A stretch of DNA of 64,000 nucleotides, from contig NW_025767224.1 of NCBI RefSeq assembly GCF_003918875.1, positions 620,001-684,000 of the forward strand, written 5' to 3'. This DNA is from Haliotis rubra. Taxonomy: Eukaryota. The position numbers and the translations under genes are program-made. The notes under the pieces were generated by a model, which saw nothing but the letters and a program-made list of their open reading frames with translations, was not told the DNA's origin and did no database searches. Below, piece by piece: positions 11,053-57,592 of this stretch (position 1 is its first letter; each line of letters begins with the position of its first letter).

Positions 11053-11878
11053 TAAGATATCTCAAACACTTGGAAAAAACCTGACCTTGGTTGTAACTTT
11101 AAGACGAATTACTGGTCATATAGGAACAAGATCGTAAATGTTTAGGTGGTTTGATGATGCCATTTGGAGCTCTTCAATAACGATTGTAATTGGTATGCTC
11201 ATTTGTCGTTAACTTCTGACACAGGCTTTGACTATGTCTCTTTGGTATGCATAGCCCTGTCGCGAACATTGGAGCAACGACGTATATACGTCTTTGATGT
11301 GACCAATCACCATCGCCATTACGAATGAAGCAGAAGCTGGAAACTGGCAATCAGTCATGTGTCTCTTTCAGGTAAGTTAAACAGGGATACCCCACTCGGA
11401 CACGTCATACTGGCTCCGCACCAGTCCCTTATCCTCTTAGGGTCGAGCGCCAAGGTAACAACAATCACCATGTTTAAACGTCTTTAAGTGTGACGTGGTC
11501 GGGTTCGAACCATCGACCTTCCGCTCTACAGGCAGACGCTCTGTCTACTGGACTGAAGTAGGAGACGAGCACAGATATTTGGAATTAGAAAGGTGCATAT
11601 ATAGTTGTTGTATTTGATTCAGTTTGTATACCATACCAGAATATATATCTTCTAACAAAATGGGTTAGCATGAGTTCAGACACTTTCTCAGAAAATAGTC
11701 AAAGGTGAATAGTGATATCTACAATATATAAATACACATAACATACAGGACATGTATAAATTATTCATAAACATAACGATATTCTCTGTTGTCTTGTGAA
11801 TGAGAGACGTGGCTTGAATAATGTTACGATGACATGAAGGTTCCCTGGATATGTAATGAAATCTAAATGTTCATCAAG

Positions 11879-14800: not shown

Positions 14801-17800
14801 AAATTGAAGAACGGTTGATTCTCTACCATGTCATGCCATGGCTTACAGAAAATCAGTGTCTCCGCGCTGTGGGCATGCTGGAGACTGGAATGGCCCAAAA
14901 TGAAGTGGCCAGACGCTTGAGTGTCCATCGAAACACAATTTCATCTCCATGGAAACGTTTTCGACATAATGGGAACAGATTTGCCTCTGACAGGCCGTTC
15001 ACGCGTGAGGTCACGTCAGAAAGACAACCACATTCGGCTGACCCATCTAAGGAATCGGTTCCAGACTGTCAGGGCCATTCCTGGCTTATGTCCAATCAGT
15101 TCCAAGACTGTACGGTACCGACATAGGGAGCACAACATCCGGCCCCGACGGCCTGCAATACGTCCAATTTTGCTCCAAGGTCACCGACAGGCACGTCTTG
15201 CCTGGTGCAGACAGCATCTACGGTACATCAGACAAGCTGTTTCGTTCACTGACGAGTCGAGATTTCATCTGGACAGCTCAGATGGTAGTGCAAGGGACAG
15301 CAAGGTGAACGGTATGCTGACGCGTGCGTTATTCAACGTCAACAGTTTGGTGGCGCGGCGTTATGTTATGGGGAATAATCACATCACACGGTCGGACACA
15401 ACTTGTTATTGTCAATGGCAATCTGACAGGTCTGGGATACAGGGATGAGATCTTTAGGCATCATGTGCAGCCGTTGATTCAATGACAGAGACGTCACTTC
15501 ACACTTCAGCAAGATAATGCCCGTCCACATGTTGCTCGTGTTGTGACAGATTTCCTGAGACAGCAGAACATTCCGGTACTCCTTGGCCAGCTGTTTCTCC
15601 GGACCTGTCCGCTATCGAGCACACTTGGGATGAAATGGAGCGACATTTACGTCAAGCCCAGAATCAGACATTGACGTTAGCTGATTTCGGACAAGCGTTG
15701 GTTCAGACATGGAACAACATTGGAACACGATACAGACCCAGTCGACAAATACACTGTGATATCATCTATCAAGACAGCAGAATTGGGAGTAGCTTGAATG
15801 ATGCACAGTGTCTTGTGTGCGTAAAGATAGGTACCCAGGTGGGGAATCGAACAGGGTCTTCGGCGTGACGAGCGAACCCTTTCACCACTGGGCCTTGTCT
15901 GGGAAATCTAAACAATCAAGCAGAATATGCTTGAATAAGAATGGGTTGTATAGTGAATACATTGGCGGATCCAGAGGGGGTTGGGGCAAACACCCCACCC
16001 ACACACCCCTATGGCAACCCCCCTTTCAAAATTCCTGGATCCGCCCATGGAATATAAGGCGTGTGAAACTGAGATAAACCGTGAATAATTCAGGTAATGG
16101 GGCGGGTGATCAATAATTCCTTCAAATTACACATTAACAAGAACTGATGCAGGCAGGCGTACAGCGAATGCTTAACATGGCAGCAGGGGGCGCATGGTCG
16201 TCATTTCTGCACATTATATATCTGTTGATCAGTATTTGACCTCTCTATGGCAACCATTGCCAGCACTCGATAGTGTAATGTGGCTGTAGGGACAGTCATA
16301 AATACATGTTAAGTCGCAGTCAGCAGCAAGAAGTGATTAAAGCTATGCTGTCTTGTCAGATGTCGAGTGATGGTGGAACAGTAAGCGTGATTTAGAGTTA
16401 TCTGCCCCTGGTGGTTTTTTTACGAAAATGGCAGGCTTGAAGTTACACAAGACAAGTATTTTCCAGCAGACTTCGATAGTAACGTTATTTTCTTAATCAA
16501 CGCAGACCTCAACAGATATTACATGTACATGTGCGCACAGGACCTGCAGCTATAAAATATAAATCATGACTAGCTGTTCCAGTGTTCCCGAGTACAGGAA
16601 CACACCAGTCCAAGTTCCGCACAAAACGCCACCGACTTGAACATGAACGGTCACATTAAGCATACGTCATCATGTTAAAAAACACATCACTACATATTAC
16701 TGGAGGGGGTTCATTTTCAATATACAAAAATCTGTTTCAAAATTATCCTACCAGAGTTGCCAGATGATTCAACCTGCCCTGATAGTTCTTACGAAAGCTG
16801 CTTGTTGAATGACAATTCGGTGAAAAAGTGTCTTAATCGATTGAGATGACAGCTTTTAGAAGACTGGCTGTAACTATATGTAAGACACAAGGGAGTGATC
16901 AACCCCTAAACAACATGTTTGAATATTTCACATTGATTATTCTTTGATCTTGTTTGGTCATGTACTAATTTCACAATTTAGTTTATAAATGCCGCTTTCT
17001 TGGTTCACCCCAACGGTTCAGTCTCGAAATCCCTTAGACACATTTTGTATCCGTCCCCACTGCACCACTACCACCTTCCTGTACACATCCGTTCCGTTGT
17101 ATAATGTTATACGTATCTTATGACATAATTGTACATGTCGTCATATGTATAAACGCATAACATAGTAGCATATATACACACAAATAATTTAGACATAATG
17201 CTGGACAAATTCTTGTTTCCGGTTTGTTTTTTCACATATATATCGTTACTTGATTTGAAACCTATGATTGGATACCATGAGAAAGTCCAAGAACATTAAA
17301 GTTATCACTTGTTGACATCACTTGATCGAGAATAACGAACCTCGATTTTGCCTTTCATATCAGTATTTTTTCGGTGAATATATTTCTGATATTTCTTCAG
17401 AGTGCAGATATTTGTTCAGTCATTCTAAACACGCGCTGGTTCTGCTTCTTCGGAAAATCCTCGACACATTCATTAGTAAATACAGTTCAATCACGAAATC
17501 GCCATTTTAGTTTTACGCCAACCCAAATGAGTTACACAAAACCTATTATACATTATTTACCACTGAGGATTATACATGTATTTTCAAATGCGAACATAAT
17601 AAATGAGGAATGCAAGATCTGAATTGAAATGCATACAGTTGAATGTTCTTTTGAACGGGCATAACATTAAATTGCCCAGTTCATAACACGAGGTCATTAA
17701 GCAGTCAGTCATCCAGCATAGCCGGCTATGCAGCGGCAAGTTGTGACTGCTGCTATGGAGAAACATTAATGAGACGTAAACACCTTACGAACTGTACTTA

Positions 17801-23800: not shown

Positions 23801-26800
23801 TTAGAACTGAGCTGCATGCAATGGGTTGGCAGAAAAGTCGAAGAATTCCATCACCGATCATGAAACCAAAACAAAAGGAGCGAAGGTTGAACTGGTGCTT
23901 ACAGCATAGAAATTTTAACTGGGACAATGTGATTTTCTCAGATGAAAGTTCTGTGTGGCTGTTTCCTAATACACTGAAATTCTGGACCAAACAAACTGAA
24001 AAACCTTTGTATCAGCGCCCAAAGTACAGTCCGAAATTTAACATGTGGGGTGGCATATCTGTGTTAGGGGCAGCGCCCCTCTGTGTATTGAAGGGAATAT
24101 GAACAGTGAGCGGTACACAGATATTCTCGAGGGACATTTACTTCCATCTGCTCACGTGTTCTATGGAAATTTTTGGATTTTCCAGCAGGACAACGACCTA
24201 AAACATCGTTCAAAGCATTCACAGGCCTGGTTTCGGACCCAAAATATGACATTATTAGATTGGCCAAGCTATAGCCCTGACCTAAATCCAATAGAAAATG
24301 TTTGGGGACTTATGAAGGAAAGTGTCAATAAGAAAAATCTGACAAATATTGCTGAAATGAAAGAAGAGGTGGTCCGATATTGGGACAGCATGGACCACGA
24401 CTTTCTAACTTCTTTGATCAGTAGTATGCCCCGCCGCATTGAAGCCTGCATTGCTGCCCATGGTGACTTGACAAAATACTAACTGTTCACCTGTCTTTGA
24501 ATCTGGAGTTATGTTCTGCTAATATTCACATTTAATACGTGAGTACTGAGTGAATTTTTTTATAAAAATTACAATCTTTAAATCTTTTGAATGAGAGAGT
24601 GGGGGTTTGGGCACGAAAGCTGCACATACGTGGAAAATCGAACATGTGCCAAGTACAAGACGAGCAAACACTGTAACTGGCTGACCACCCACGTCTCAAC
24701 AATATACCAACACCTGGCACTGAGGGGTATTTATACAATTCTCAGTTACAGTATTATACAATATTTTTGTTCAGTTGCAATTAGTTGCAAACGTTTTCAC
24801 GCAGAACACCACAGGCGTTCGTCAGTCACGTAAACCGATGAAAATGTTGTATTTACTTCGGTTACCATGACAATTAGAACTTTCCATCCAGAGAAAAATT
24901 GTACATTCAACAGACCTTACCAGTTAATACATGGTACTCTGCGAAAGAACGATGTTTGAAGACATTGGATTACCTGAAACTCAAAGCGTTTGCAAATGGT
25001 TGATATTATACAGGAAAGTCAAGAACAGGCAGTAAATGTTAGATGTAATGTGGCCAAGAACTGAAGGACCAGCTATACTTGTAGTAGTTTTCTACACGCG
25101 GTCATGAATGAGATCTTGAAATATCAAAGGGCACTCCGGCGAGATTTTCTATGTATCTTTGATGTCTCGATAGATAATATGTAACCTGATACATGATACT
25201 GTATCTACCCAGTTTCATGGGGAACCTGAATATATTACTCAAAATCCAAGGGTAAATGATCGACACTTATAAGACATATCTTTCCCATCAGGCGCGACGA
25301 TCATTCATCTAAAGTACTTCTAACCTGCCGGGCAAAACATATGAAACAAACAAGATTGCTTCTCCGATGGTTCTGCATGTGATATTACACTGTAAGGCCT
25401 TCAGTGTTTCCACGACTGATTTTCCAAACACACCTGGTAATGTTTTAGTTAATTTAATTCTCATATCTTTATAAAATGGGTTAGGAATATTGAAATTTCT
25501 TCACATCGTTACCACCAGTTCCAGGAAATATAGCGTCAGGGGAACTTCAGACAAGTTATTTACGTTCTACAATTATGTTCAATACTGGTTAATTGTATGG
25601 ATGGCATTGGTAACATAATGTCCCTAGATCGGATATTGGGATCGCGTGTTTTACGAGGTTACGTACTGCCCGTGTACGTAAAGGGTGCATCAATCTAGGA
25701 CTACCGACGGGCTGAGTCGGAAATGTGCTCTGTGGCAATCCAGACAGATACAAAATTATAGCAAGCATGCTTAACACTTTTACATCGTCCTCAGATCAAT
25801 CAAAGCTAGGTGAAACAGCATCCATTTATCACCCAACAAGCTCGCTATAACGAGGATGTACAGAAAATGCGACTATGTTATCCATGTACAATTAACACAC
25901 TATATGTAGACAAAACGATACATTATCCACATGTCAGCAATCAGATGTCGACTTACAATGTTTTTATATTCGGTATGAGTCATGTATATTACAAGGAAAT
26001 GGCACAGCGAAATTTCAACTGCACAATTAAGCTACGGTTTATTCTTCGTGACGCTCTATATATAGCTGTATGTCATCCATCACAGGATACCCCTCCAAGG
26101 ACAGATGACGTCATGACAGCGCCATAAACACGTCTTTGCCGACAGCTTCACAGTTCTTTCGGTGTGAAGATTTTAAAACTTTAAACACTCTCGAACGCAA
26201 ATATGCCACACCCACGGAGGAGTAATTGTGATATGCGTATATGAAGGGATTATCTTAAAACGACCGGAATTCTCCAGAAGAATGTAATACTATTATTTTA
26301 CAAGCCTACGCAATGTTCATTTAAGAGAAGCTGTGGCGGCTAAATATAGACGAGTTGTAATAAGTTCTTCCTTATTCCGACTTACACCCACTGAAGTACA
26401 CAGGGTAGGAATTTATGCTTACAGTGCATTTTGTGAGGGGAACACGTGTTTTCGTCTATGAGCAAAACAGGAAAAGCTAACTCTAAATGTCAAGTTATGA
26501 GAACAGAAATTAGCGAGGGAAAAGAAAGACATTGGCATTGGAAATTGGCACATTGGCACAGAAGCAGCATTATTCGCTTTCTATCAAAATATAGAAAATG
26601 CGGCTTTTCCTATTTGTAGAGACAACAGTTCCACCAATATCTGCATCAACGTCATCTCAAATAGCCTGTGACGTCACGAACAATAGCAAACGATCTGTTC
26701 AAGTACTGGCACAATGCAATGACGAAGGAAGCTTCACAACCCAACATAATAGAACTCCCGGACAGTCGGCATGAGGTACACATCTACAGTGAAGTATTCT

Positions 26801-44237: not shown

Positions 44238-47200
44238 TCACACTTGCTGTTGCTGTTCCTTGGGCCTCTGACAAACAACGACGGGCACGTGTGAGTGATG
44301 TACGATGTAGTCGCTAACGCTGCCGAGTATCTTCCTACTCATCATGCCGCGTCCGCGCGTTCCCGTGACGACGTAATCAACCTCTTCTTCCTCCGCTGCC
44401 TTCACCAGAGACGAACCAGGATGACCATTCAGGCGCAGAATACGACCCGGTACCTACATGCATAGACTGACTTAGTCCCACAAATAACGTCAATATATTC
44501 TTTAAAATATGTTTATAAAAATGCATAAATATTACATAAAAGTCCAAAACAATTCTAAGATCTGAGGCAATATAGGCTTGCACAGTAATTCTGGAGTTGG
44601 ACTTCTTTCTGCATTCAAACTATGGGCTACAAAGCTATAATGCAAGCCCATATCTTAAAGTCACTTATAATGTATGGACCCCTTACAGCATCTGATCTAT
44701 GTCGTAACATTATCTATAGGAGATGTCTGTCAGTTAGATGTCATTCTGAATCGCGGAATTTACCAAACTGCACAAATCATTTTGTCAGCGAAATATACTA
44801 AGCAGCAAATTTTCCTTCGCAGAAACGTATAACTGTAAACACATTTAATGTTTTGATTGTATATGTTGGACACCATCTCCAACTTTACGTGAGCAAAGAC
44901 ATTCCTTCCCAAACTCAGAATTGAACCCAGGAAATGGTCTCAAAAACGCAACCTGACCTCGGAGATGGTACGGTGTTCTCCATGTTTTTCATGCAACTCA
45001 TGCTGCACGTGCTGTTCACAAGGTCCAGCCCTATAAATTGCCCCCCTAAACCTGGTTGAAACAATCACATTACAACGTCAGCAGGATGCCCCTTCTCACG
45101 ACAGCTCAGAGGAACCGGGCGTTAGGAAGAATTGAAGCTGGCCACACTGCACAAGCTGTTGCCAATCACTTCCAGGACAACGTTCTACAGGCTGCAGCAA
45201 CCTTTCTGGGCCATCAACACCACAATGATCGCCCCGTACTGGCAGACCAAAACAAGACCGCCATGTTGTGCGACAGCATGTACAGAATCCCTTTATGCAG
45301 GCATCCGAAACAGCACGACAGACAGGGGGAACACACGGAAGACCAATCAGTACTGATACAGTACGCCGACGTCTTAACAGCGGGAACCGCCATTGCCGTA
45401 GACCTTACCGTGGACCTATCCTCACCCTCGTCCTCGGAGTAAACGTCTACAGTTTGCCCTACAACACCAAAAACTGGCGATTCAGGCAGTGGAGAACTGT
45501 TCTTTTAACAGATGAGAGTCGGTACTGCGTATCAACGGCAGAACAATAATATGGCGACGACGTGGCCAGCACAACTCAGACCAATGTTGTATGGAAAGAG
45601 ACTCATGGGGAAGTGCAAGCATCATGGTAAGCGATGGAATAGGCCTGAACCAGAAAGTGGGTCCTGTGGCGTTCCAAAACCTTGGTCCAGGGAGACGAGG
45701 CGGCATCACAGCGGTGCGCTACGTCGACCCATCTCTCACACCCAACGTCATACCAAATTTCGCACGTCAGCGGAACAATATTTTCCAGCATGATAACGCT
45801 CGGGACCATACTGCCAGAGATACACGGGACTTCCTGCAGCAGAACGGTGTCAACATTATGTAGTGGCCAGGCCTAAGTCCTGATTTAAACCCAATTGAAC
45901 ATCTTTGGGTTGAAATACAGAGGAGACTGAATAATGTCATACCAAGGCCAATCACAGCCGATTTATTTCGCCAGGTTTTTGTCCGCGTGTGGTTCCATGT
46001 GCCAATGGCCTTCATCGATCGATTGGTGCCTTCCATGCTTAGACGCTGTGCTGCAGTTATTGGTCGCACTAGATACTGAACTCAAGGGTCTGAATGGACT
46101 GCAAACGTACACGTAATGTCTTGAAATTGTGCTGAGTTATTCATTGATGTGCCAAGATATTGCACACAAAAACAATTTTTGATCCGCTTATTATGTCAAT
46201 TTCTGTAATGATTTAATTACAGTGCCTATCTAATTTTGAATTCGTACTGGCGTTTGGGGTTTTTTTGCTGCTGAGTATACATGCCTGCCCCCAAAAGCAT
46301 TGCAATAAATACAACATTACTTGGTTTCTGGTTTACCTCCACACTGAACAATATTCCATACCTCTTGTGATGTACTCATACTTATCTATACATTTAATAA
46401 CTAACACAATGCATTAAATAAACTAAAGCATTTATATGCATTACGATTGGAACTTTGGAAATACAGTATTCGAACAAAGCTCGTGACATAGTAGCCGCGT
46501 GACTTATCTTACCCCGGTTTTAGTCAGCCTCTCCCGCAGTTTGTCGACAATGACGCCGATTTTGACAGCCTCTTCTCGAACGAGCTCGGCAACCAGGGAC
46601 GGATCGCCACTGATACCGGCTGAAGATGAAGATGGGCAATATGTTATGGTTACATACGTAGTCATTTGACTATTCAGAAATAAACACTAAATTATCTCTA
46701 GGAATGGATTCCGGGCGCACTCTAATAAACCTAAGCTTGAGGGTCTTTCCAAGCGTACTGCTGAAATATTGCTAAAATTGACGAAAACCCTAATCCACAA
46801 TAAAGGCTCTAATTGTTATTCAGTTATGGGTAATAAAAATTCGTTGGATTGATTGTGGACCTTTGTTACTCACGCGTGTGATAGATGGCGCTGTAGTCGG
46901 GACAATGCGCCACCACTACGTCATTCCCCATCCGGTGAAGCCTGTCCATGTACCCTGCAAATATACTTCAAGGTAAACACGTTATGGTGGTACAAGAGTG
47001 AGAGAGTGAGTATGGTTTTACGCTGCTTGTAGTTACATCACAACCAGTGGGCTTCACACAATGTACGCATGTGGGGAACGAACACTCTGACCACTACGCT
47101 GCACCGCCGCCCCAGGTGGTACAAGAAAAAGTATACAGATGCACACGTGGTCCTCTGTCACGCAATCAGGTGCGTAGCAAGCCAATGTTTTCGTGTAAGC

Positions 47201-50367: not shown

Positions 50368-53315
50368 TTTCCGAGTGTATATCACGTGAGAGTCGACGAG
50401 GTTGAATGGACCGACTTTGAGGGCCGACCATGCGGGGGCAGGTCACGTGATCTGTCATCAGAGGTTGACAGGGAAGGTTGTAACAACAAGATGAATGAAG
50501 GGAAACGAAAATTTATTCATAGATCCCCTTTGGGGGAAACAGCCTTCTGTTGTAATCAGGGTATATGTAGTTTATGATACTCCTGCAGAATCACCAGAAC
50601 TGATAAAGTACATCAAGCAACGGCCGTGACTGTGGGCAAAGTGGGAGTAGGCTATGTATATAGGGGAGGCTGTCAGTACGTCACCGGTGAGTAAACGATG
50701 CCACATTTCCGGGAAATTTCTCTGCCAATATGTCTTCTGTGACGTCTACATTGGCCGACATTATACTGCGTTCACAATAACACACCGGCTCTTCTCGTTA
50801 TGATGTCAACATGAATGGTTTCATCTTATTGCGTCTGTAAGTAAAAAAGTTTATGGGAATATCTCAACTGGGTCATATACTCTGAACAAGCAGAGTGACA
50901 AGCAAGCTGACTGACAGCACGGAGTGGTGAGAGGGAGAACTTACTGAGACTATTCATGTTTAACTGTATGTTTTCTGAATATTTTATGTCTGTTTCAGTT
51001 GCTAATCCCAGTTGTCACACGGGAACATCATATTGAAAACGTGGGTCACCTCTTAACAAATAAACATTGGACATATTTGTTGACCAACAAACCTGTGTAA
51101 TAAATAACGTTGCTTTATGAAGTTTAGGAACAAAGATTGGTTGTTCACCGAATGAAATAAAAATCTATGAAGTTTAAATTTATGCTCGTGGACGTACAAC
51201 GGTTAAGAATTAATTTTTCAAGAATAAATTACCATTCATTCGTTTCTGTCCCAACTGCCTAGATCGATGTTATAATGTCAGTCACTGCATTGTCTGGTCC
51301 AGACTCCATTATTTACATGTCATATAGCTGGAATATTGCGATGTGCAGTGTTAAATATAAGCAAACAGACTAAACAATAGAGACAACAGAAGCTGGTAGG
51401 CCCACATTTCGGGTAGCCCTAACTCATTAAACACTGAAAGCTTTGCTAGTTGTTGTTGCTTGCAGTGTTTTAGAGGTCGCCTTCTGCAATTGCAAATATC
51501 GGCTTACCTCCTCCTTTCTGTGACCACGGGTGTGCTAAGTTGTAGGTACACATATCAATAGGGAGTTTTAGTATTTAAATACTAAAAGTAAACAAGACTT
51601 CTATGTTAGTAATGTTATCATTTAATGTTTGATTTTTAGAAATTGAAAAACAGCAACAATATTTGGCTGTTCTATTTATCAACGTTCCAGAGACCATCTT
51701 TCAGAAATAGATTTTGGCCTTCTCAATTGGATCTCTTCCCTTTTAGCAGTTCTGTGACAGATACCGGATTTGATTGCAATTCTTGTTTTAATTGAGTGGG
51801 GTCTGGGGCATGGTCTCGACATTACAGTAAGAGCAAGCAACCTATGCAGGTTTATGTCAAGATTTCCTTTCATATGAGTCTAGCATTACTCACATGTATA
51901 TGAATATTTTTCTCTCACAAAACATGTATAAATGTGATATTTGTCACAAATGGGAGCTCTCAAACAGAATTTGAAAATGATTTAGAGCTGTAGTTTGTGT
52001 TTATAAATATAACCCAGTCATGTACAGCCACGTATTGGCGGTTGTTGTGTTAGCAGGAACTGATTTAAGCTTGTATACACAATACCCTTTTCCTCACAGT
52101 GTCGTATATCCATTAGTCAGTCATTGTTGGGAGAACAAAACATGAAACTCTGGAAATGTCTCCTTTCCTCGATAGATTGTGATCCTGCGTGAAGTAGGTC
52201 CCCAGCAACCCTTGCTTTCTTCCTCGTACGGGGTCGGGCACAGAAAATGTCTCGAGTAACCCTTGGTTGTCTCCCAGCTGCGAGTCAGGATTGATCACAG
52301 TAACCTATGCCAGTCGCAAACAGCGACAAAACTGATCGGGTGGTCAGTTTCCTTGACGTCGATGGACCCTACGGGATGGACGTTTCTCATAATTATAATC
52401 ACTGGTTTGCCTGGTTCAAACACGATTTACAGGATGAGAACATATACATTTAAGCTCACCTGTCTGAAAGGCTAGTGGGTTTATGACCCACGTTTCCGGC
52501 GAGGAGAGCGCCTGTACATACCTGCTACTCAGAACCACCTGACCAAGGCTGAAACTACACATGCTAGTTCCTTACAATGTTCCTGATTGTGTTCCAGAAG
52601 TTCGTTCCCGATTTTGCACAAGGCAGTTGCGACCTGTATTTGGCTATTCAAGTTTTTACTGTAATCATGACATTTTGTTGGGGGTTGGGGGGTGGGGGTG
52701 TTATTTGTTATGAGACCAGACACATAGTTTCAACTTTGCTTTTGTGATATTTTAGAATTTGACCTTGATCTGGCCTTTGCACCATTTTACCGTGCTCTTA
52801 AATTGGGTAAAAAATATTGTTTACGTTTTGCAAAACACAGCATGCAGCGTTACTTGTGTCTTTCCTTTGTGAGTTTTTCAGAAAATGCTGACAGCAACCT
52901 TCGTTAAGTGTCTGGTTTTGATGGCATTTTAAACTGTTTCCGCCATATCCCGACTAGCTACTTGCCCTGGCACTATGTTTCTGTTGCTCAAACATATATG
53001 AGGCACATATTAACACTGGTTTTCGCCACAAGTATAACCTTTGAATTACAATTATGAACAGCGGGCCACGCCGTACATTGGACTCGTCGCCTGACAAAAC
53101 TTCTCTAGGGGCGGTGCGTATCTCACTTATATGTCCTAGGAGGTTTCCTGTTAAAGTCACATGTTTCGAATGACCAGGAAACTGATACTGATTAAAATAG
53201 AACTAGTCAGATATATTCGCACACTAGTCACCGCCTACTGGCCACTGGGTTCCAAATAACGAGAGAAAAGGACGAAGTTTTCTGGATATTTCATAACAAA
53301 GGTCAGTAATGTTTG

Positions 53316-53677
53316 TGTAGCGGCCATAAAATTTCCGAGTCCCGTGCTGGGATTCGAACCACGGACCTTCTGATCCGAAGTCGGACGCCTTGTCCACATA
53401 ACCAAGTTAACCCCGTCAGCAAGCTGACAATGTAAGGATGTCATCTGTGGGATGACTCCACGCCCTGCTTACTCCCCGTCATCCGAAGTTAGGTACTGAC
53501 ACTTATTTTGCTCAAATTTGATATGAACGTGCTCTTTGTGTAGCACATTTCCGAGTCCCGTGCCAACCTTCTTATCCGAAGTCGGACGCCTTGTCCACAT
53601 GACCAAAGACGTTAACCCCGTCAGCAAGCTGACAATGTAAGGATGTCATCTGTGGGATGACTCTACGCCCTGTTACA
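53316..53677 (-). mobile_element. TRIM-like mini LTR element with tRNA-Arg(TCG)-derived sequence inside both LTRs
   Basis: Direct repeats at 53539-53677 and 53316-~53472 (TGTAAC...GCTACA on the minus strand). The 66-bp internal region ends in purine-rich GATGACGGGGAG. TTTG flanks both ends. The repeats contain GGCGTCCGACTTCGGATCAGAAGG..GGTTCGAATCCC (B box deleted in the 53539-53677 copy). Confidence 0.65.
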
Positions 53678-53862
53678 TTTGCAAAACGTATCCCCCCGAG
53701 AAACAAGGGTATCTTCTGACTATCTATTCGTGGGTATGGGTGCTGTAAGCTGTGAAGTCATATGTATCTCCTGCACTGCATATAATGTGACATCAACTGG
53801 TCGCAAATACATAGCAATGATAAACTTATGAAGATTTGCAGCTACACTCAACCACCGATTTG

Positions 53863-54092
53863 TCGAACGTATAGTTGTCTCCGACTAAAAGCTAGGTCCC
53901 TGTGTATTCCTTATTTAGGCATCCCGTTACGGTTGTGTCGAGCGTATGGTTGTCTCGAACTAAAAGCTATGTCCTGTATATTCCTTATTTAGGCATCCCG
54001 TTACGGTTGTGTCGAGCGTATGGTTGTCTCGAACTAAAAGCTATGTCCCTGTGTATTCCTTATTTAGCCATCACGTTACGGTTGTGTCGAAC
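53863..54092. repeat. ~75-bp tandem repeat (~3 copies)
   Basis: ctaaaagcta..tattccttatttag..gttacggttgtgtcga starts at 53885, 53960 and 54034. Confidence 0.85.
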
Positions 54093-54373: not shown

Positions 54374-55945
54374 TACGGAAGCGTAGGAGGGCCACCGTGA
54401 ATTTTTTTGGGGGGTCACTATCTCCTACGTAGGACTTAGTATCTCCTACGTAGGACATACTATCTCCTACGTAGTACTTAGTATCTCCTACGTAGGACTT
54501 AGTATCTCCTACGTAGGACTTTAGTATCTCCTACGTAGGACTTACTATCTCCTACGTAGGACTTTAGTATCTCCTACGTAGGACTTACTATCTCCTACGT
54601 AGGACTTAATATATCCTTTTTAAGGATGGTTATTAAGTTGAGAAATGTTTGGCTATGCAGGACGTTAGATAGTCGAAATGTGAGTCAGTGAATATTCATG
54701 ACACTGACGCAGTGTTACTGTACAGTGTTATTGTGTGTGTATTACGTTAGGGTGACGTGGACCCTGTTCTAATTGCAGTTATGGAGGTTTGGGTATGGTT
54801 ATGTTTAATCTATCATACATACATCTATTCACACACACAAACAGACACACACACACACACACACACACACAGGGGTGGGTGGGATGGTTGGGATGAGGTT
54901 GTGATATGAAACGTGGGTTATAACACGACCTCCGCAAGTTGTTGCTTGTCTTTATAGGGCTAGGTTGGATCGGATGCAACGCTCGTTTGCGGTTTTATTC
55001 GTAATTGTTTACAGGTTGACTTGACTGGGGTGGACAAGTGTTGAGTGCGGCGTAAAACAATACGAAATTATAAAAGGCAAAGAATTGTCATTATAGTTAT
55101 TTGTATAAATATAAGGGGATGCGTGCACATAGATTGCCACCTATAGTCTAAGACACGTCTGTACACGCAAATTATGATTCATGTGCAACGACCTCTGAAA
55201 TATCCAATGCATAATAGTAAAGTGTAACAAAGTGCAACATATAACAGTAAACTAACTGCAACGCGTAATAGTAGAGCAAACTGAACGCAAGGCAGTAAAG
55301 TATAACAGTCGGTCCAAAACCGTACTAATGTGCAACAATTAGTTGAACACATGACTCTAATAGTGAAGGAAACAGTAGACTCTAATAGTAAATTGAAACA
55401 CATGATAGTAGACTCTAACAGTAAATGAAACACATAACTGTAGACTCTAATAGTGAATGAAACGAATGACTGTAGACTCTTACAGTGACTGAAACAGTGA
55501 AACAGGAGATTGTGTGCGTGTCTGGGGCTTTAAGTCGGCCGTTTCAGATTAATCCATATAAACGTATATCGATCATCTCCTACAGGAAATTTTAAGTACT
55601 ACGTAGGAGATACTAAGTCCTACGTAGGAGATACTATGTCCTACGTAGGAGATACTAAGTCCTACGTAGGAGATACTATGGCCTACGTAGGAGATACTAA
55701 GTCCTACGTAGGAGATACCCACTTAGGTGATACTAACTCCTACGTAGGAGATACTAAGTCCTACGTAGGAGATACTAACTCCTACGTAGGAGATACTATG
55801 TCCTACGTAGGAGATACTAAGTCCTACGTAGGAGATATTAAGTCCTACGTAGGCGATACTAAGTCCTACGTAGGAGATATTAAGTACTACGTAGGAGATA
55901 GTAAGACCAAAAAATATTTCACCGTGGCCCTACTACGCTTCCGTA
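54374..55945. mobile_element. Non-autonomous foldback DNA transposon with TIRs and subterminal 21-bp minisatellite arrays
   Basis: Termini TACGGAAGCGTAG..GGGCCAC.GTGAA / TTCAC.GTGGCCC..CTACGCTTCCGTA. Flanking duplication CAAGAGC at 54367-73 and 55946-52. Inverted arrays of ctacgtaggagatactaagtc at ~54418-54610 and ~55597-55900. Confidence 0.85.
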
Positions 55946-56575
55946 CAAGAGCTGATCAAGAAATAAACTGAATTATTTTAGTGTGAGACATCTTTTCAGC
56001 ACCTCCTCTTACCGCTACGGGAGATATATTACTTTGTTTTCTACTTGGTGGTCGCCCTACTCAGTGTACGAAGGACCTCGACTATGAAACATGGGCAATG
56101 TGCATAAGCCGAATATGCAGAACTATTAAGTTGTGGTAACGATATTTCTATGAATGTGTATAATTTCTGACATGTGTAAATACCATACACATAATACCAT
56201 ATGTGTATATTCATGTAATACCATATTGATTTACTTGTTGTAATGTACTTGTGAACGTTATATTTATATTCATATGCTATGGAGGAAATAAAGTATATCT
56301 ATCTATCTATCTATAATATACTTAGTTTAGGCACTTGGCTCTTCCGAGATGAAAATTATACCGGTGTGATTAGGTATGTGTTTCTCATCGCCAGGCCGTC
56401 TATGGTTTGGCCGCCGACCCGCCGAAACAATTTCTAAAAGAAAGAACCTACTATTCGTTTGTTTTGTATATCTGGCTAATTAAAACCTGGAACTTGTAAT
56501 ACCACGTGTCACGTCGTGTAATAATATACATCAGCTGTTACAACCCTGCCTTCATTGTCATCCACAGATTCCAGA

Positions 56576-57592
56576 ATGGGGTATTCCTCCACACCGACGT
56601 TGTCGTGGACATTCTGTGTGACGGTATGTTTCTGTGTATTGACCAACACAGACGGGATGAGTGTCTGGCGTAGCAGGTCAGACGCATTGACTAACGGGAA
56701 ACATGGCTCATTCTGCTTCCGGCACATCTGTGAGTGTTCGGGGCCATTGGCTAACTGTGGGTTTGGTCACCTGACTTTTATTCCAAGCTTGTGGGACAAC
56801 ATTACTCAGCTGAACTTCACAGACAACAGCTTGCATCGGATATCGAGGGCTACGTTCGCCAACATCACACATTTGAAACTGGATTTCCTGTCTCTTGCGT
56901 GGAACAAAATAAGGAACATTTCTGATGACGCTTTATCTGTACTGGTTGAGCTTAAACACTTGGACCTCACCGGAAATGATCTTCTTACCACGACAGATCT
57001 AGCGACGGCTTTTCATGGTCTCGATAATACACCTCTCCAAAGTCTGACATTACGTGCTATGAAGTTGAAGCATATACCAGTGGACATGTTTCATGGGATG
57101 AGGAATAACACACTCAAATATCTTGTCCTAGAGAGAAACCATCTACAGGAATATAACCAAGAACCGTTTTCAGTACTCAGGAATATACGTGTTATAGAAT
57201 TAGGGGGTAACAACATACGGTCATTGAAGTGGGGCCATTCTCCCCATCTGAGCAGTCTATCGCTTCCTGGCAACAGAATCACAGAGGTTCCATCCTTCTG
57301 TGGTTTCAACTCAAGCTTTTATCCCATGTTAAAGAGACTTGCTCTAGAACACAACCTTTTAACGGACATGAGGCCACACATGTTCAGATGTTTACCACAC
57401 ATCAACGTTTTGGGACTCAATGATAACCCTATAGAAGGGATTGAAACTAACACCTTTTCAGAATTATCCACACTCAAAACTATCTTTCTACAAAATCTTA
57501 AAGGATCAACATTTTTCATCAAGAATTATGCGTTCAATAATAGTAACATCCAACGCATCAGTATGAAAGGTACTCGGATTGTATACCGCTAA
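56576..57592 (+). CDS. Leucine-rich-repeat protein, Toll-like-receptor-type ectodomain, truncated (no LRRCT/TM/TIR); possible pseudogene
   Basis: Intronless ORF with a likely ATG at 56576. It has a hydrophobic signal-like N-terminus, a Cys cap (CFRHICECSGPLANC) and about 10 LxxLxLxxN repeats. It ends abruptly mid-LRR, where AT-rich non-coding sequence begins. Confidence 0.8.
   Translation: MGYSSTPTLSWTFCVTVCFCVLTNTDGMSVWRSRSDALTNGKHGSFCFRHICECSGPLANCGFGHLTFIPSLWDNITQLNFTDNSLHRISRATFANITHLKLDFLSLAWNKIRNISDDALSVLVELKHLDLTGNDLLTTTDLATAFHGLDNTPLQSLTLRAMKLKHIPVDMFHGMRNNTLKYLVLERNHLQEYNQEPFSVLRNIRVIELGGNNIRSLKWGHSPHLSSLSLPGNRITEVPSFCGFNSSFYPMLKRLALEHNLLTDMRPHMFRCLPHINVLGLNDNPIEGIETNTFSELSTLKTIFLQNLKGSTFFIKNYAFNNSNIQRISMKGTRIVYR

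What the first reader, a model, noticed from the sequence alone, without database searches (positions are those of the whole stretch)
53316..53677. Miniature LTR element whose LTRs carry a tRNA-Arg(TCG)-derived Pol III promoter
Seen: two ~140-155 bp direct repeats with outer TGT...ACA ends, a 66-bp internal region ending in a purine-rich tract and a 4-bp flanking duplication (TTTG). The repeats contain a stretch matching the tRNA-Arg(TCG) anticodon arm, and one copy also retains the T arm/B box. Established: some non-autonomous LTR elements (Cassandra with 5S; Helenus/Ajax types) embed Pol III small-RNA sequences in their LTRs. Inference: a SINE/TRIM hybrid that may be an undescribed family mobilised by a Gypsy-type partner. 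Caveats: no clear TGG primer-binding site, and TTTG also precedes the right-hand repeat, so a solo LTR plus local duplication is possible.
Basis: partly seen in the sequence, partly recalled or inferred. Interest (0 to 1): 0.7.

Follow-up and report, generated by a model that had tools for sequence, protein, structure and literature searches.

The report
Abalone tRNA-promoter mini-retrotransposon capturing mRNA
This is a damaged copy of a widespread 428-base jumping element of an abalone-like snail, whose end repeats carry a piece of an arginine tRNA gene that likely acts as its promoter; sister copies are fused to larger retrotransposons that likely move it, and one brackets a complete spliced copy of a host gene between inverted repeats.

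Summary
Confirmed as a real miniature LTR retrotransposon (TRIM). It reads on the minus strand and is a decayed copy (primer site and 5'-LTR B box lost) of a dispersed family (1406 candidates). Typical copies: 161-bp LTRs, 106-bp interior, 18-nt primer site matching host tRNA-Lys(CTT), purine tract, exact 4-bp target duplication in 22 of 28 loci, solo LTRs, tandem arrays. The LTR matches host tRNA-Arg(TCG) at 42 of 59 positions but has no acceptor stem. It meets every sequence criterion of Helenus (Kojima 2024), so it is a new member of a known kind; no gastropod host and no matching sequence were found in that paper. Pol III transcription is untested and the A box is degenerate. The added value lies in sister loci: fusions with two Gypsy families bounded by 4-bp duplications point to the likely mobilising partners; one insertion is an LTR plus a copy of almost the whole tRNA-Lys primer; and one 2.33-kb insertion holds a spliced, open-frame LMO4 cDNA between inverted LTRs joined at their primer sites, a layout that suggests priming by plus-strand strong-stop DNA.

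The parts
53312..53315 (.). 4-bp target-site duplication, left copy (TTTG)
53316..53469 (-). 3' LTR (154 bp; 151 identities, 3 mismatches, 7 gap columns against real copy L004); first three bases lost
53328..53331 (-). run of four T after the tRNA-like part, the only one in this copy; candidate Pol III terminator
   Evidence: function inferred
53346..53404 (-). tRNA-derived stretch (tRNA positions 8 to about 66): A box 53394-53404 (degenerate), anticodon arm with TCG 53369-53385, B box 53350-53360; no acceptor stem
   Evidence: 41 of 59 identical to the host tRNA-Arg(TCG) gene; Rfam 15.5 bits
53470..53480 (-). polypurine tract directly before the 3' LTR
53470..53538 (-). internal region, 69 bp (106 bp in most sister copies); primer-binding site lost except a short remnant at 53535-53538, plus a further deletion of about 20 bp
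53539..53677 (-). 5' LTR (139 bp); A box 53595-53605 and anticodon arm kept, T arm/B box and the T run lost by short deletions
53678..53681 (.). 4-bp target-site duplication, right copy (TTTG)

Best explanation
[quoted passage not shown] Shown: family anatomy, 4-bp duplications, solo LTRs, arrays, primer-site match, and a tRNA-Lys copy joined to an LTR. Inferred working cycle: Pol III starts near LTR position 65 of the 5' LTR, some transcripts read through the single T4 run and stop at the same run in the 3' LTR, giving an RNA of about 350 nt whose repeated end (about 85 nt) is the tRNA-like part; Gypsy RT and integrase do the rest. The most likely partner is 'family 2' (about 60%), with 'family 4' also sharing particles. 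The plus-strand intermediate (LTR plus primer-site tail) is inferred to mis-prime now and then on other packaged nucleic acids, which gives the Gypsy fusions and the inverted-LTR LMO4 retrocopy. The window copy has lost the primer site and the 5' B box and is predicted to be immobile.
For: Anatomy of 28 distinct loci: LTR 161 bp, interior mostly 105-108 bp, exact 4-bp duplication in 22, 5-bp in 1; first 11 primer-site bases exact in 16, all 18 in 10 (my count); three-LTR arrays in 2. Three of three LTR-only hits are solo LTRs with 4-bp duplications. Primer site equals the reverse complement of the host tRNA-Lys(CTT) 3' end plus CCA, 18 of 18. L062 is an LTR followed by a copy of nearly all of tRNA-Lys (65 of 76) inside an ATGG duplication. 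LTR positions 73-131 match host tRNA-Arg(TCG) at 42 of 59, tRNA-Lys at 30 of 59; B box matches; one T4 run per LTR. Family 2 (PNMA Gag, RT, RNase H, integrase) has the same 18-nt primer site, 12 of 15 matching bases at the LTR start, 9 of 12 in the purine tract, 4-bp duplications at 3 solo LTRs, and one head-to-head fusion with the TRIM LTR inside a GATT duplication (L099). Family 4 (same domains) forms two independent fusions with CTAT and ATAA duplications (L033, L135). Both window LTRs share a variant absent from the other 29 loci, as expected from one round of reverse transcription.
Against: No direct evidence of Pol III transcription. The A box departs from the TRGCY motif that Kojima reports for most Helenus (it reads TGGTC), and the first T4 run lies before the primer site, so read-through must be assumed. 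The partner is not unique: family 1 (Gypsy) shares the LTR-end, 1-nt spacer and 18-nt primer site exactly (23 of 23) but matches the other termini poorly (5-6 of 12-15) and gave no fusion in what was fetched; family 4 uses a different primer site yet fuses twice. Similarity of the TRIM interior to the family-1 leader is marginal (22, 93 and 30 of 1000 shuffles reach it). Five of 28 loci lack a duplication at the TRIM ends (two of them are the longer fusions). Loci were the best-scoring hits, not a random sample.
Confidence: 0.85

Rival explanations
1. Same TRIM, but transcribed by Pol II (own U3 or host read-through); the tRNA-like stretch is a passive relic of an old SINE insertion into the LTR.
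For: A box degenerate at two consensus positions; a T4 run sits upstream of the primer site; no transcript start was seen.
Against: B box intact and A-B spacing equal to the tRNA gene without gaps; the LTR has only 65 bp upstream of the tRNA part and 11 bp after the T run; the same layout (tRNA part, then a T run near the LTR end) recurs in Helenus sequences of the Kojima supplement that I saw.
Confidence: 0.1
2. Solo LTR or tRNA pseudogene/SINE plus a local tandem duplication.
For: TTTG also precedes the right repeat; no primer site in this copy.
Against: The interior aligns with the family interior including the purine tract and a primer-site remnant; 27 other distinct loci have the same LTR-interior-LTR order with different duplications.
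Confidence: 0.01
3. For the LMO4 unit: an ordinary LINE-made processed pseudogene later hit by TRIM insertions or rearranged, or an assembly chimera, rather than one LTR-type insertion primed by plus-strand DNA.
For: Single case; outer duplication is 3 of 4 (CAGG/TAGG); cDNA differs 1-4% from the parent exons while the three LTRs differ by at most 2 positions; no listed contig bridges an LTR-cDNA junction in four public runs.
Against: Both junctions fall at the end of an 11-12-nt primer-site tail, not at LTR ends; no poly(A); the 3' junction is in register with a primer-like site in the parent 3' UTR (8 of 11; 3 of 1489 positions score as high; the only GGGCGCC in 1.5 kb); all three LTRs share a variant absent from the other 29 loci; contigs of three runs join the two flanks directly, skipping 2334 bp; three introns are precisely absent.
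Confidence: 0.2

Closest known systems
Helenus / TRIMp3 (Kojima 2024, PMC10886601), especially bivalve and nemertean families such as Helenus-3_CGi, Helenus-1_PiNo, Helenus-1_LiLo
   Same: Under 1 kb, non-coding, tRNA-like stretch in sense orientation in each LTR followed by a T run, primer site for tRNA-Lys(CTT) one base after the 5' LTR, purine tract ending GGGGGAGTA, 4-bp duplications, solo LTRs, tandem arrays, Gypsy as inferred partner.
   Different: Host is a gastropod by protein hit; the paper's host table and supplement name no gastropod. LTR stretch is Arg(TCG)-like; the paper's animal alignments use Lys and Val tRNAs and its predicted bivalve tRNAs are Thr. Short words from this LTR gave no hit in Data S1. 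Partner evidence here is physical fusion, in the paper only primer-site likeness for animals.
Cassandra and Ajax (5S-derived TRIMp3)
   Same: Pol III small-RNA sequence inside a TRIM LTR; Cassandra is transcribed from its 5S part of the 5' LTR to the 5S part of the 3' LTR (as stated in PMC10886601), the model used here.
   Different: 5S rather than tRNA origin; Ajax has 5-bp duplications and a Leu primer.
LTR-mediated retroposition of mRNA (Tan et al. 2016, PMC5131818)
   Same: Spliced host mRNA flanked by LTR-element sequence, short similarity at the junctions, no LINE hallmarks.
   Different: There the mRNA replaces part of the element interior through two template switches and is often partial; the words inverted, orientation, opposite, strong-stop and primer binding do not occur in its text. 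Here the LTRs face each other, both joints are at primer-site tails, the carrier is a non-coding TRIM and the whole coding sequence is kept.
biv-TRIM of bivalves (Satovic et al. 2019, PMC6934838)
   Same: Molluscan TRIM with solo repeats and tandem arrays (passages).
   Different: No canonical primer site there; tRNA likeness reported only in the interior; no gastropods mentioned.

Membership tests
Helenus (TRIMp3) | TRIM: two LTRs, under 1000 bp, no coding capacity | tested here: met
   428 bp, LTR 161 + interior 106 + LTR 161; window copy 362 bp
Helenus (TRIMp3) | tRNA-derived sequence inside the LTR | tested here: met
   42 of 59 ungapped to host tRNA-Arg(TCG); Rfam tRNA positions 8-63 in both LTRs of L004, 18.6 bits, below gathering
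Helenus (TRIMp3) | Box B GGTTC kept | tested here: met
   present in family LTRs and in the window 3' LTR; deleted in the window 5' LTR
Helenus (TRIMp3) | Box A motifs TRGCY and YGG (most, not all, families) | tested here: inconclusive
   reads TGGTC...TGG: YGG met, TRGCY missed at one base
Helenus (TRIMp3) | Primer site complementary to a tRNA 3' end, different from the LTR tRNA part | tested here: met
   18 of 18 to host tRNA-Lys(CTT)+CCA; met by the family, lost in the window copy
Helenus (TRIMp3) | Polypurine tract before the 3' LTR | tested here: met
Helenus (TRIMp3) | 4-bp target duplication (animal families) | tested here: met
   22 of 28 loci, 3 of 3 solo LTRs
Helenus (TRIMp3) | Not a functional tRNA gene | tested here: met
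   ARAGORN: none in 28 loci scanned; no acceptor stem
Helenus (TRIMp3) | Transcription by Pol III (also unproven for published Helenus) | not testable with these tools
   read lay uninformative
A named Helenus family or Repbase/Dfam entry | Sequence identity to a published consensus | tested here: inconclusive
   word searches of Data S1 gave no LTR match, but lines are wrapped, no alignment was run, and Repbase/Dfam are not available
Cassandra / Ajax | 5S rRNA-derived LTR sequence | tested here: not met
   Rfam scans of the element give only tRNA
tRNA-derived SINE | Single head-to-tail unit with simple-repeat tail, no paired LTRs, primer site or purine tract | tested here: not met
Gypsy superfamily (candidate partners, families 1, 2, 4) | Gag, then RT, RNase H, integrase in that order between LTRs | tested here: met
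   Pfam PNMA, RVT_1, RT_RNaseH, Integrase_H2C2, rve in that order

The most novel reading that the evidence does not exclude
The LTR-plus-primer-site plus strand of this Pol III TRIM acts as a free primer inside Gypsy particles: it primes cDNA synthesis on host mRNAs at tRNA-like sites and on other elements' DNA, and two such primers make an integrable DNA with inverted LTRs. This is a second, undescribed route to full-length retrogenes, driven by a non-coding element, and its by-products record which autonomous elements carry a TRIMp3.
Probability: 0.4. Interest if true: 0.72.

Novelty: new member of a known kind. Interest (0 to 1): 0.5.

Why it matters
The element extends Helenus to gastropods and adds an Arg(TCG)-derived LTR, which fits repeated independent origins of tRNA-bearing TRIMs. 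More useful: Kojima 2024 states that it is not known how TRIMs depend on their autonomous partners and that none is identified for Cassandra. Here, fusion products bounded by target duplications name the Gypsy families that shared a particle with the TRIM, which makes that question testable from genome sequence alone. The LMO4 unit shows that a 428-bp non-coding element can carry a whole spliced transcription-factor reading frame to a new site, in a layout that the standard template-switch model does not predict.

Tried and rejected
Three pattern searches for the host tRNA-Arg gene failed because the patterns were too strict; a looser one found 102 matches. A 7-kb Rfam scan round the locus gave only weak hits, mostly microRNA models on neighbouring satellites. 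Expression: no RNA holder on record was listed; three small-RNA runs of another organism label gave 0, 10 and 6 reads on both strands of the tRNA-like part, and one run only guessed to be RNA covers 27 of 29 bins; none of this is used for or against transcription. Presence of the LMO4 unit in other animals could not be told from contigs. The idea that the locus L003 tail was a Gypsy interior was wrong (it is LMO4 cDNA). The T at primer-site position 6 in both LMO4 junctions is not explained by a tRNA variant: all 97 tRNA-Lys pattern hits have the standard base. Selection on the retrocopy is not supported: 6 synonymous and 6 replacement changes, one synonymous at an exon edge. Target duplications of family 1 could not be fixed. 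The second LTR-like piece in L063/L100 matched nothing among fetched loci. Two chimera searches (3 and 9 matches) are built to miss many cases, so they give no frequency. Earlier findings of the scan: nothing. Literature: searches (listings only) showed no abalone TRIMp3 and no inverted-LTR, primer-site-joined retrocopy; older yeast and retrovirus papers outside the library could hold such cases.

Full report
Observation. Exact limits are 53316-53469 and 53539-53677 with a 69-bp interior; the repeats align with 127 identities, 5 mismatches and 30 gap columns. The element reads on the minus strand: the right repeat is the 5' LTR, the purine tract (53470-53480) abuts the left repeat, and the tRNA-like stretch (53346-53404) is in sense orientation. 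Rfam aligns it to tRNA positions 8-63 with a TCG anticodon but at 15.5 bits, under the gathering score; ARAGORN calls nothing.

The family. A search of the own genome (1.38 Gb) gave 1406 candidates, of which 40 were scored, with 48 matches; the best 30 loci are 28 distinct places. Measured against one real copy (L004), the LTR is 161 bp, the interior mostly 105-108 bp and the whole 428 bp. An exact 4-bp duplication flanks 22 of 28, a 5-bp one 1 of 28, none 5 of 28; the chance per locus is about 0.4%. LTR pairs without large gaps differ at 0-10 of 161 positions, so insertions are fairly young. Two loci are three-LTR arrays. Of 12 partial hits fetched, 3 are solo LTRs, each with a 4-bp duplication; the others are truncated, internally deleted or fused. 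One base after the 5' LTR comes a primer site: first 11 bases exact in 16 of 28 loci, all 18 in 10 of 28 (my count). It is the 18-of-18 complement of the host tRNA-Lys(CTT) end plus CCA (97 pattern matches; ARAGORN). The window copy has lost this site, the B box and T run of its 5' LTR, about 20 interior bases and the first three bases of the 3' LTR. The inner TTTG aligns with a primer-site remnant, or may have been copied from the outer junction during repair (inference). Both its LTRs share a variant found in none of the other 29 loci. The solo-LTR-plus-duplication caveat is therefore rejected.

The tRNA part. LTR positions 73-131 match the host tRNA-Arg(TCG) gene at 42 of 59 without gaps (41 of 59 for the window copy) and tRNA-Lys at 30 of 59; other isotypes were not tested. 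The acceptor stem is absent and no tRNA is called in 28 loci scanned, so it is not a working tRNA. The B box is intact, the A box departs from the usual motif, and each LTR has a single T4 run just after the tRNA part. By analogy with Cassandra as described in PMC10886601, I infer Pol III initiation near LTR position 65, partial read-through of the first T run and termination at the second. This is untested; the read lays were uninformative.

Host. The captured LMO4 protein is 97% identical to a Haliotis protein, next 76% to Gigantopelta, so the host is very likely an abalone (gastropod). Near-identical element sequence is held by runs of five coded organisms at half of the words or more.

Partners. 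Searching for the same primer site behind other LTR ends gave 19 matches, 18 of them one Gypsy family (family 1: PNMA Gag, RT, RNase H, integrase). Two searches for TRIM LTRs followed by foreign sequence (3 and 9 matches) and follow-up of odd flanks exposed fusions. L099 joins a TRIM LTR head to head, through the primer sites, to the LTR end of Gypsy family 2, inside a GATT duplication. Family 2 has the same 18-nt primer site, 12 of 15 matching bases at the LTR start, 9 of 12 in the purine tract and 4-bp duplications at 3 solo LTRs. L033 is a whole TRIM plus 11 primer-site bases plus the last 650 bp or so of a family-4 LTR inside CTAT; L135 has a family-4 LTR as its 5' LTR, then TRIM interior and 3' LTR, inside ATAA. 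Family 4 has a different primer site but 10 of 15 matching bases at the LTR end. Family 1 matches only at the LTR-end/primer junction (23 of 23). I infer co-packaging with families 2 and 4 and rank family 2 as the main partner (about 60%). L062 is an LTR followed by a 65-of-76 copy of tRNA-Lys inside ATGG, direct support for that tRNA being the primer.

The LMO4 unit. In L031 a whole TRIM is followed by a second primer-site tail of 11-12 bases, 1.72 kb of cDNA, the same tail in reverse and an inverted LTR. The cDNA matches four exons spread over 64 kb on another contig at 96-99%, without the three introns, and keeps a 187-codon frame with two LIM domains; there is no poly(A). The outer ends are TGTAG...CTACA with CAGG/TAGG flanks, and contigs of three public runs join the flanks directly across 2334 bp (the site is a high-copy repeat, so these need not be the same locus). 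The three LTRs differ by at most two positions and share a private variant. The 3' joint is in register with a primer-like site in the parent 3' UTR (8 of 11); the 5' joint has 2 bases of overlap. Inferred route: a plus-strand strong-stop DNA primed reverse transcription on the mRNA, a full-length plus strand with its tRNA-copied tail primed the second strand, and the product, with two LTR-start ends, was integrated. Against: one case, a 3-of-4 duplication, no independent read across the joints, and an unexplained T in both tails. Six synonymous and six replacement changes give no sign of selection.

Comparison. I read the whole text of Kojima 2024 (PMC10886601), parts 1 and 11 of 11 of its supplement and word searches of the rest; parts 2-10 were not read and no alignment to Data S1 was run. 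The family meets the Helenus definition (TRIM under 1 kb, tRNA-derived LTR, primer site, purine tract, 4-bp duplication) and resembles the bivalve and nemertean families in primer site and purine tract. No gastropod is listed and no LTR word matched. For Tan 2016 (PMC5131818) and Satovic 2019 (PMC6934838) I saw passages only. Seven literature searches, seen as listings, showed no abalone TRIMp3 and no inverted-LTR retrocopy joined at primer sites; Repbase, Dfam and most subscription papers were out of reach.

Verdict. Observation confirmed, interpretation supported. The element is a new member of a known kind (Helenus). Interest is raised by the fusion products, which make the partner question testable, and by the inverted-LTR LMO4 retrocopy. 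Interest 0.5; most novel reading 0.4 likely, 0.72 if true.

Noticed in passing
L031:7564-9893 (G000:C2489:1475563-1477892): 2.33-kb insertion: whole TRIM, primer-site tail, spliced LMO4-like cDNA with an open 187-codon frame, primer-site tail, inverted LTR; parent gene has 4 exons over 64 kb on G000:C2183:347966-412082. It sits in a very high-copy repeat.
   Followed up: yes
L062 / L149:3058 onward (G000:C2245:1273057): LTR plus a copy of nearly the whole tRNA-Lys(CTT) inside an ATGG duplication; the sequence after it reads like a 2-aminoethylphosphonate transaminase (label from recall, not searched).
   Followed up: partly
L099 (G000:C2210:946007-946700) and L100 (G000:C2279:617650 onward): TRIM LTR joined head to head, through the primer sites, with another LTR: family 2 in L099 (with a further inversion at its outer end), an unidentified one in L100.
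   Followed up: partly
L033:78-1138 and L135: Two independent TRIM/family-4 Gypsy fusions, each in a 4-bp duplication; the L033 one lies in a 51-bp satellite and is itself duplicated 6.1 kb away.
   Followed up: yes
L058, L047, L105 (G000:C2098, C692, C2196): tRNA-Lys(CTT) and tRNA-Arg(TCG) genes lie in long tandem arrays with about 300-bp spacing (dozens of copies each).
   Followed up: partly
L030, L063, L064, L067, L031: A C-to-T change at primer-site position 6 recurs at unrelated loci although it is not a CpG site and no matching tRNA gene was found; unexplained.
   Followed up: partly
L002, L006, L015, L016, L017: A subgroup shares a two-base variant at primer-site positions 12-13, suggesting more than one source copy.
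   Followed up: no
window 56525-57592 (+) and about 52330-52590 (+): Leucine-rich-repeat reading frame of Toll-like-receptor type (Pfam LRR_8) and, upstream of the element, broken frames that look like a TIR-domain end (recall, not searched): the element may lie in a receptor gene cluster.
   Followed up: partly
window 11494-11548: Weak second tRNA-like stretch (73% over 55 bp to the LTR), probably a tRNA-derived SINE head on the minus strand.
   Followed up: no
window 14921-15448, 24042-24482, 45050-45442: Tc1-like transposase remnants (Pfam HTH_Tnp_Tc3_2 and DDE_3 for the first two).
   Followed up: partly
window 53861-54090, 54417-54617, 55593-55905: 74-bp tandem repeat and palindromic 21-bp satellites next to the element; they cause the spurious microRNA hits.
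   Followed up: no
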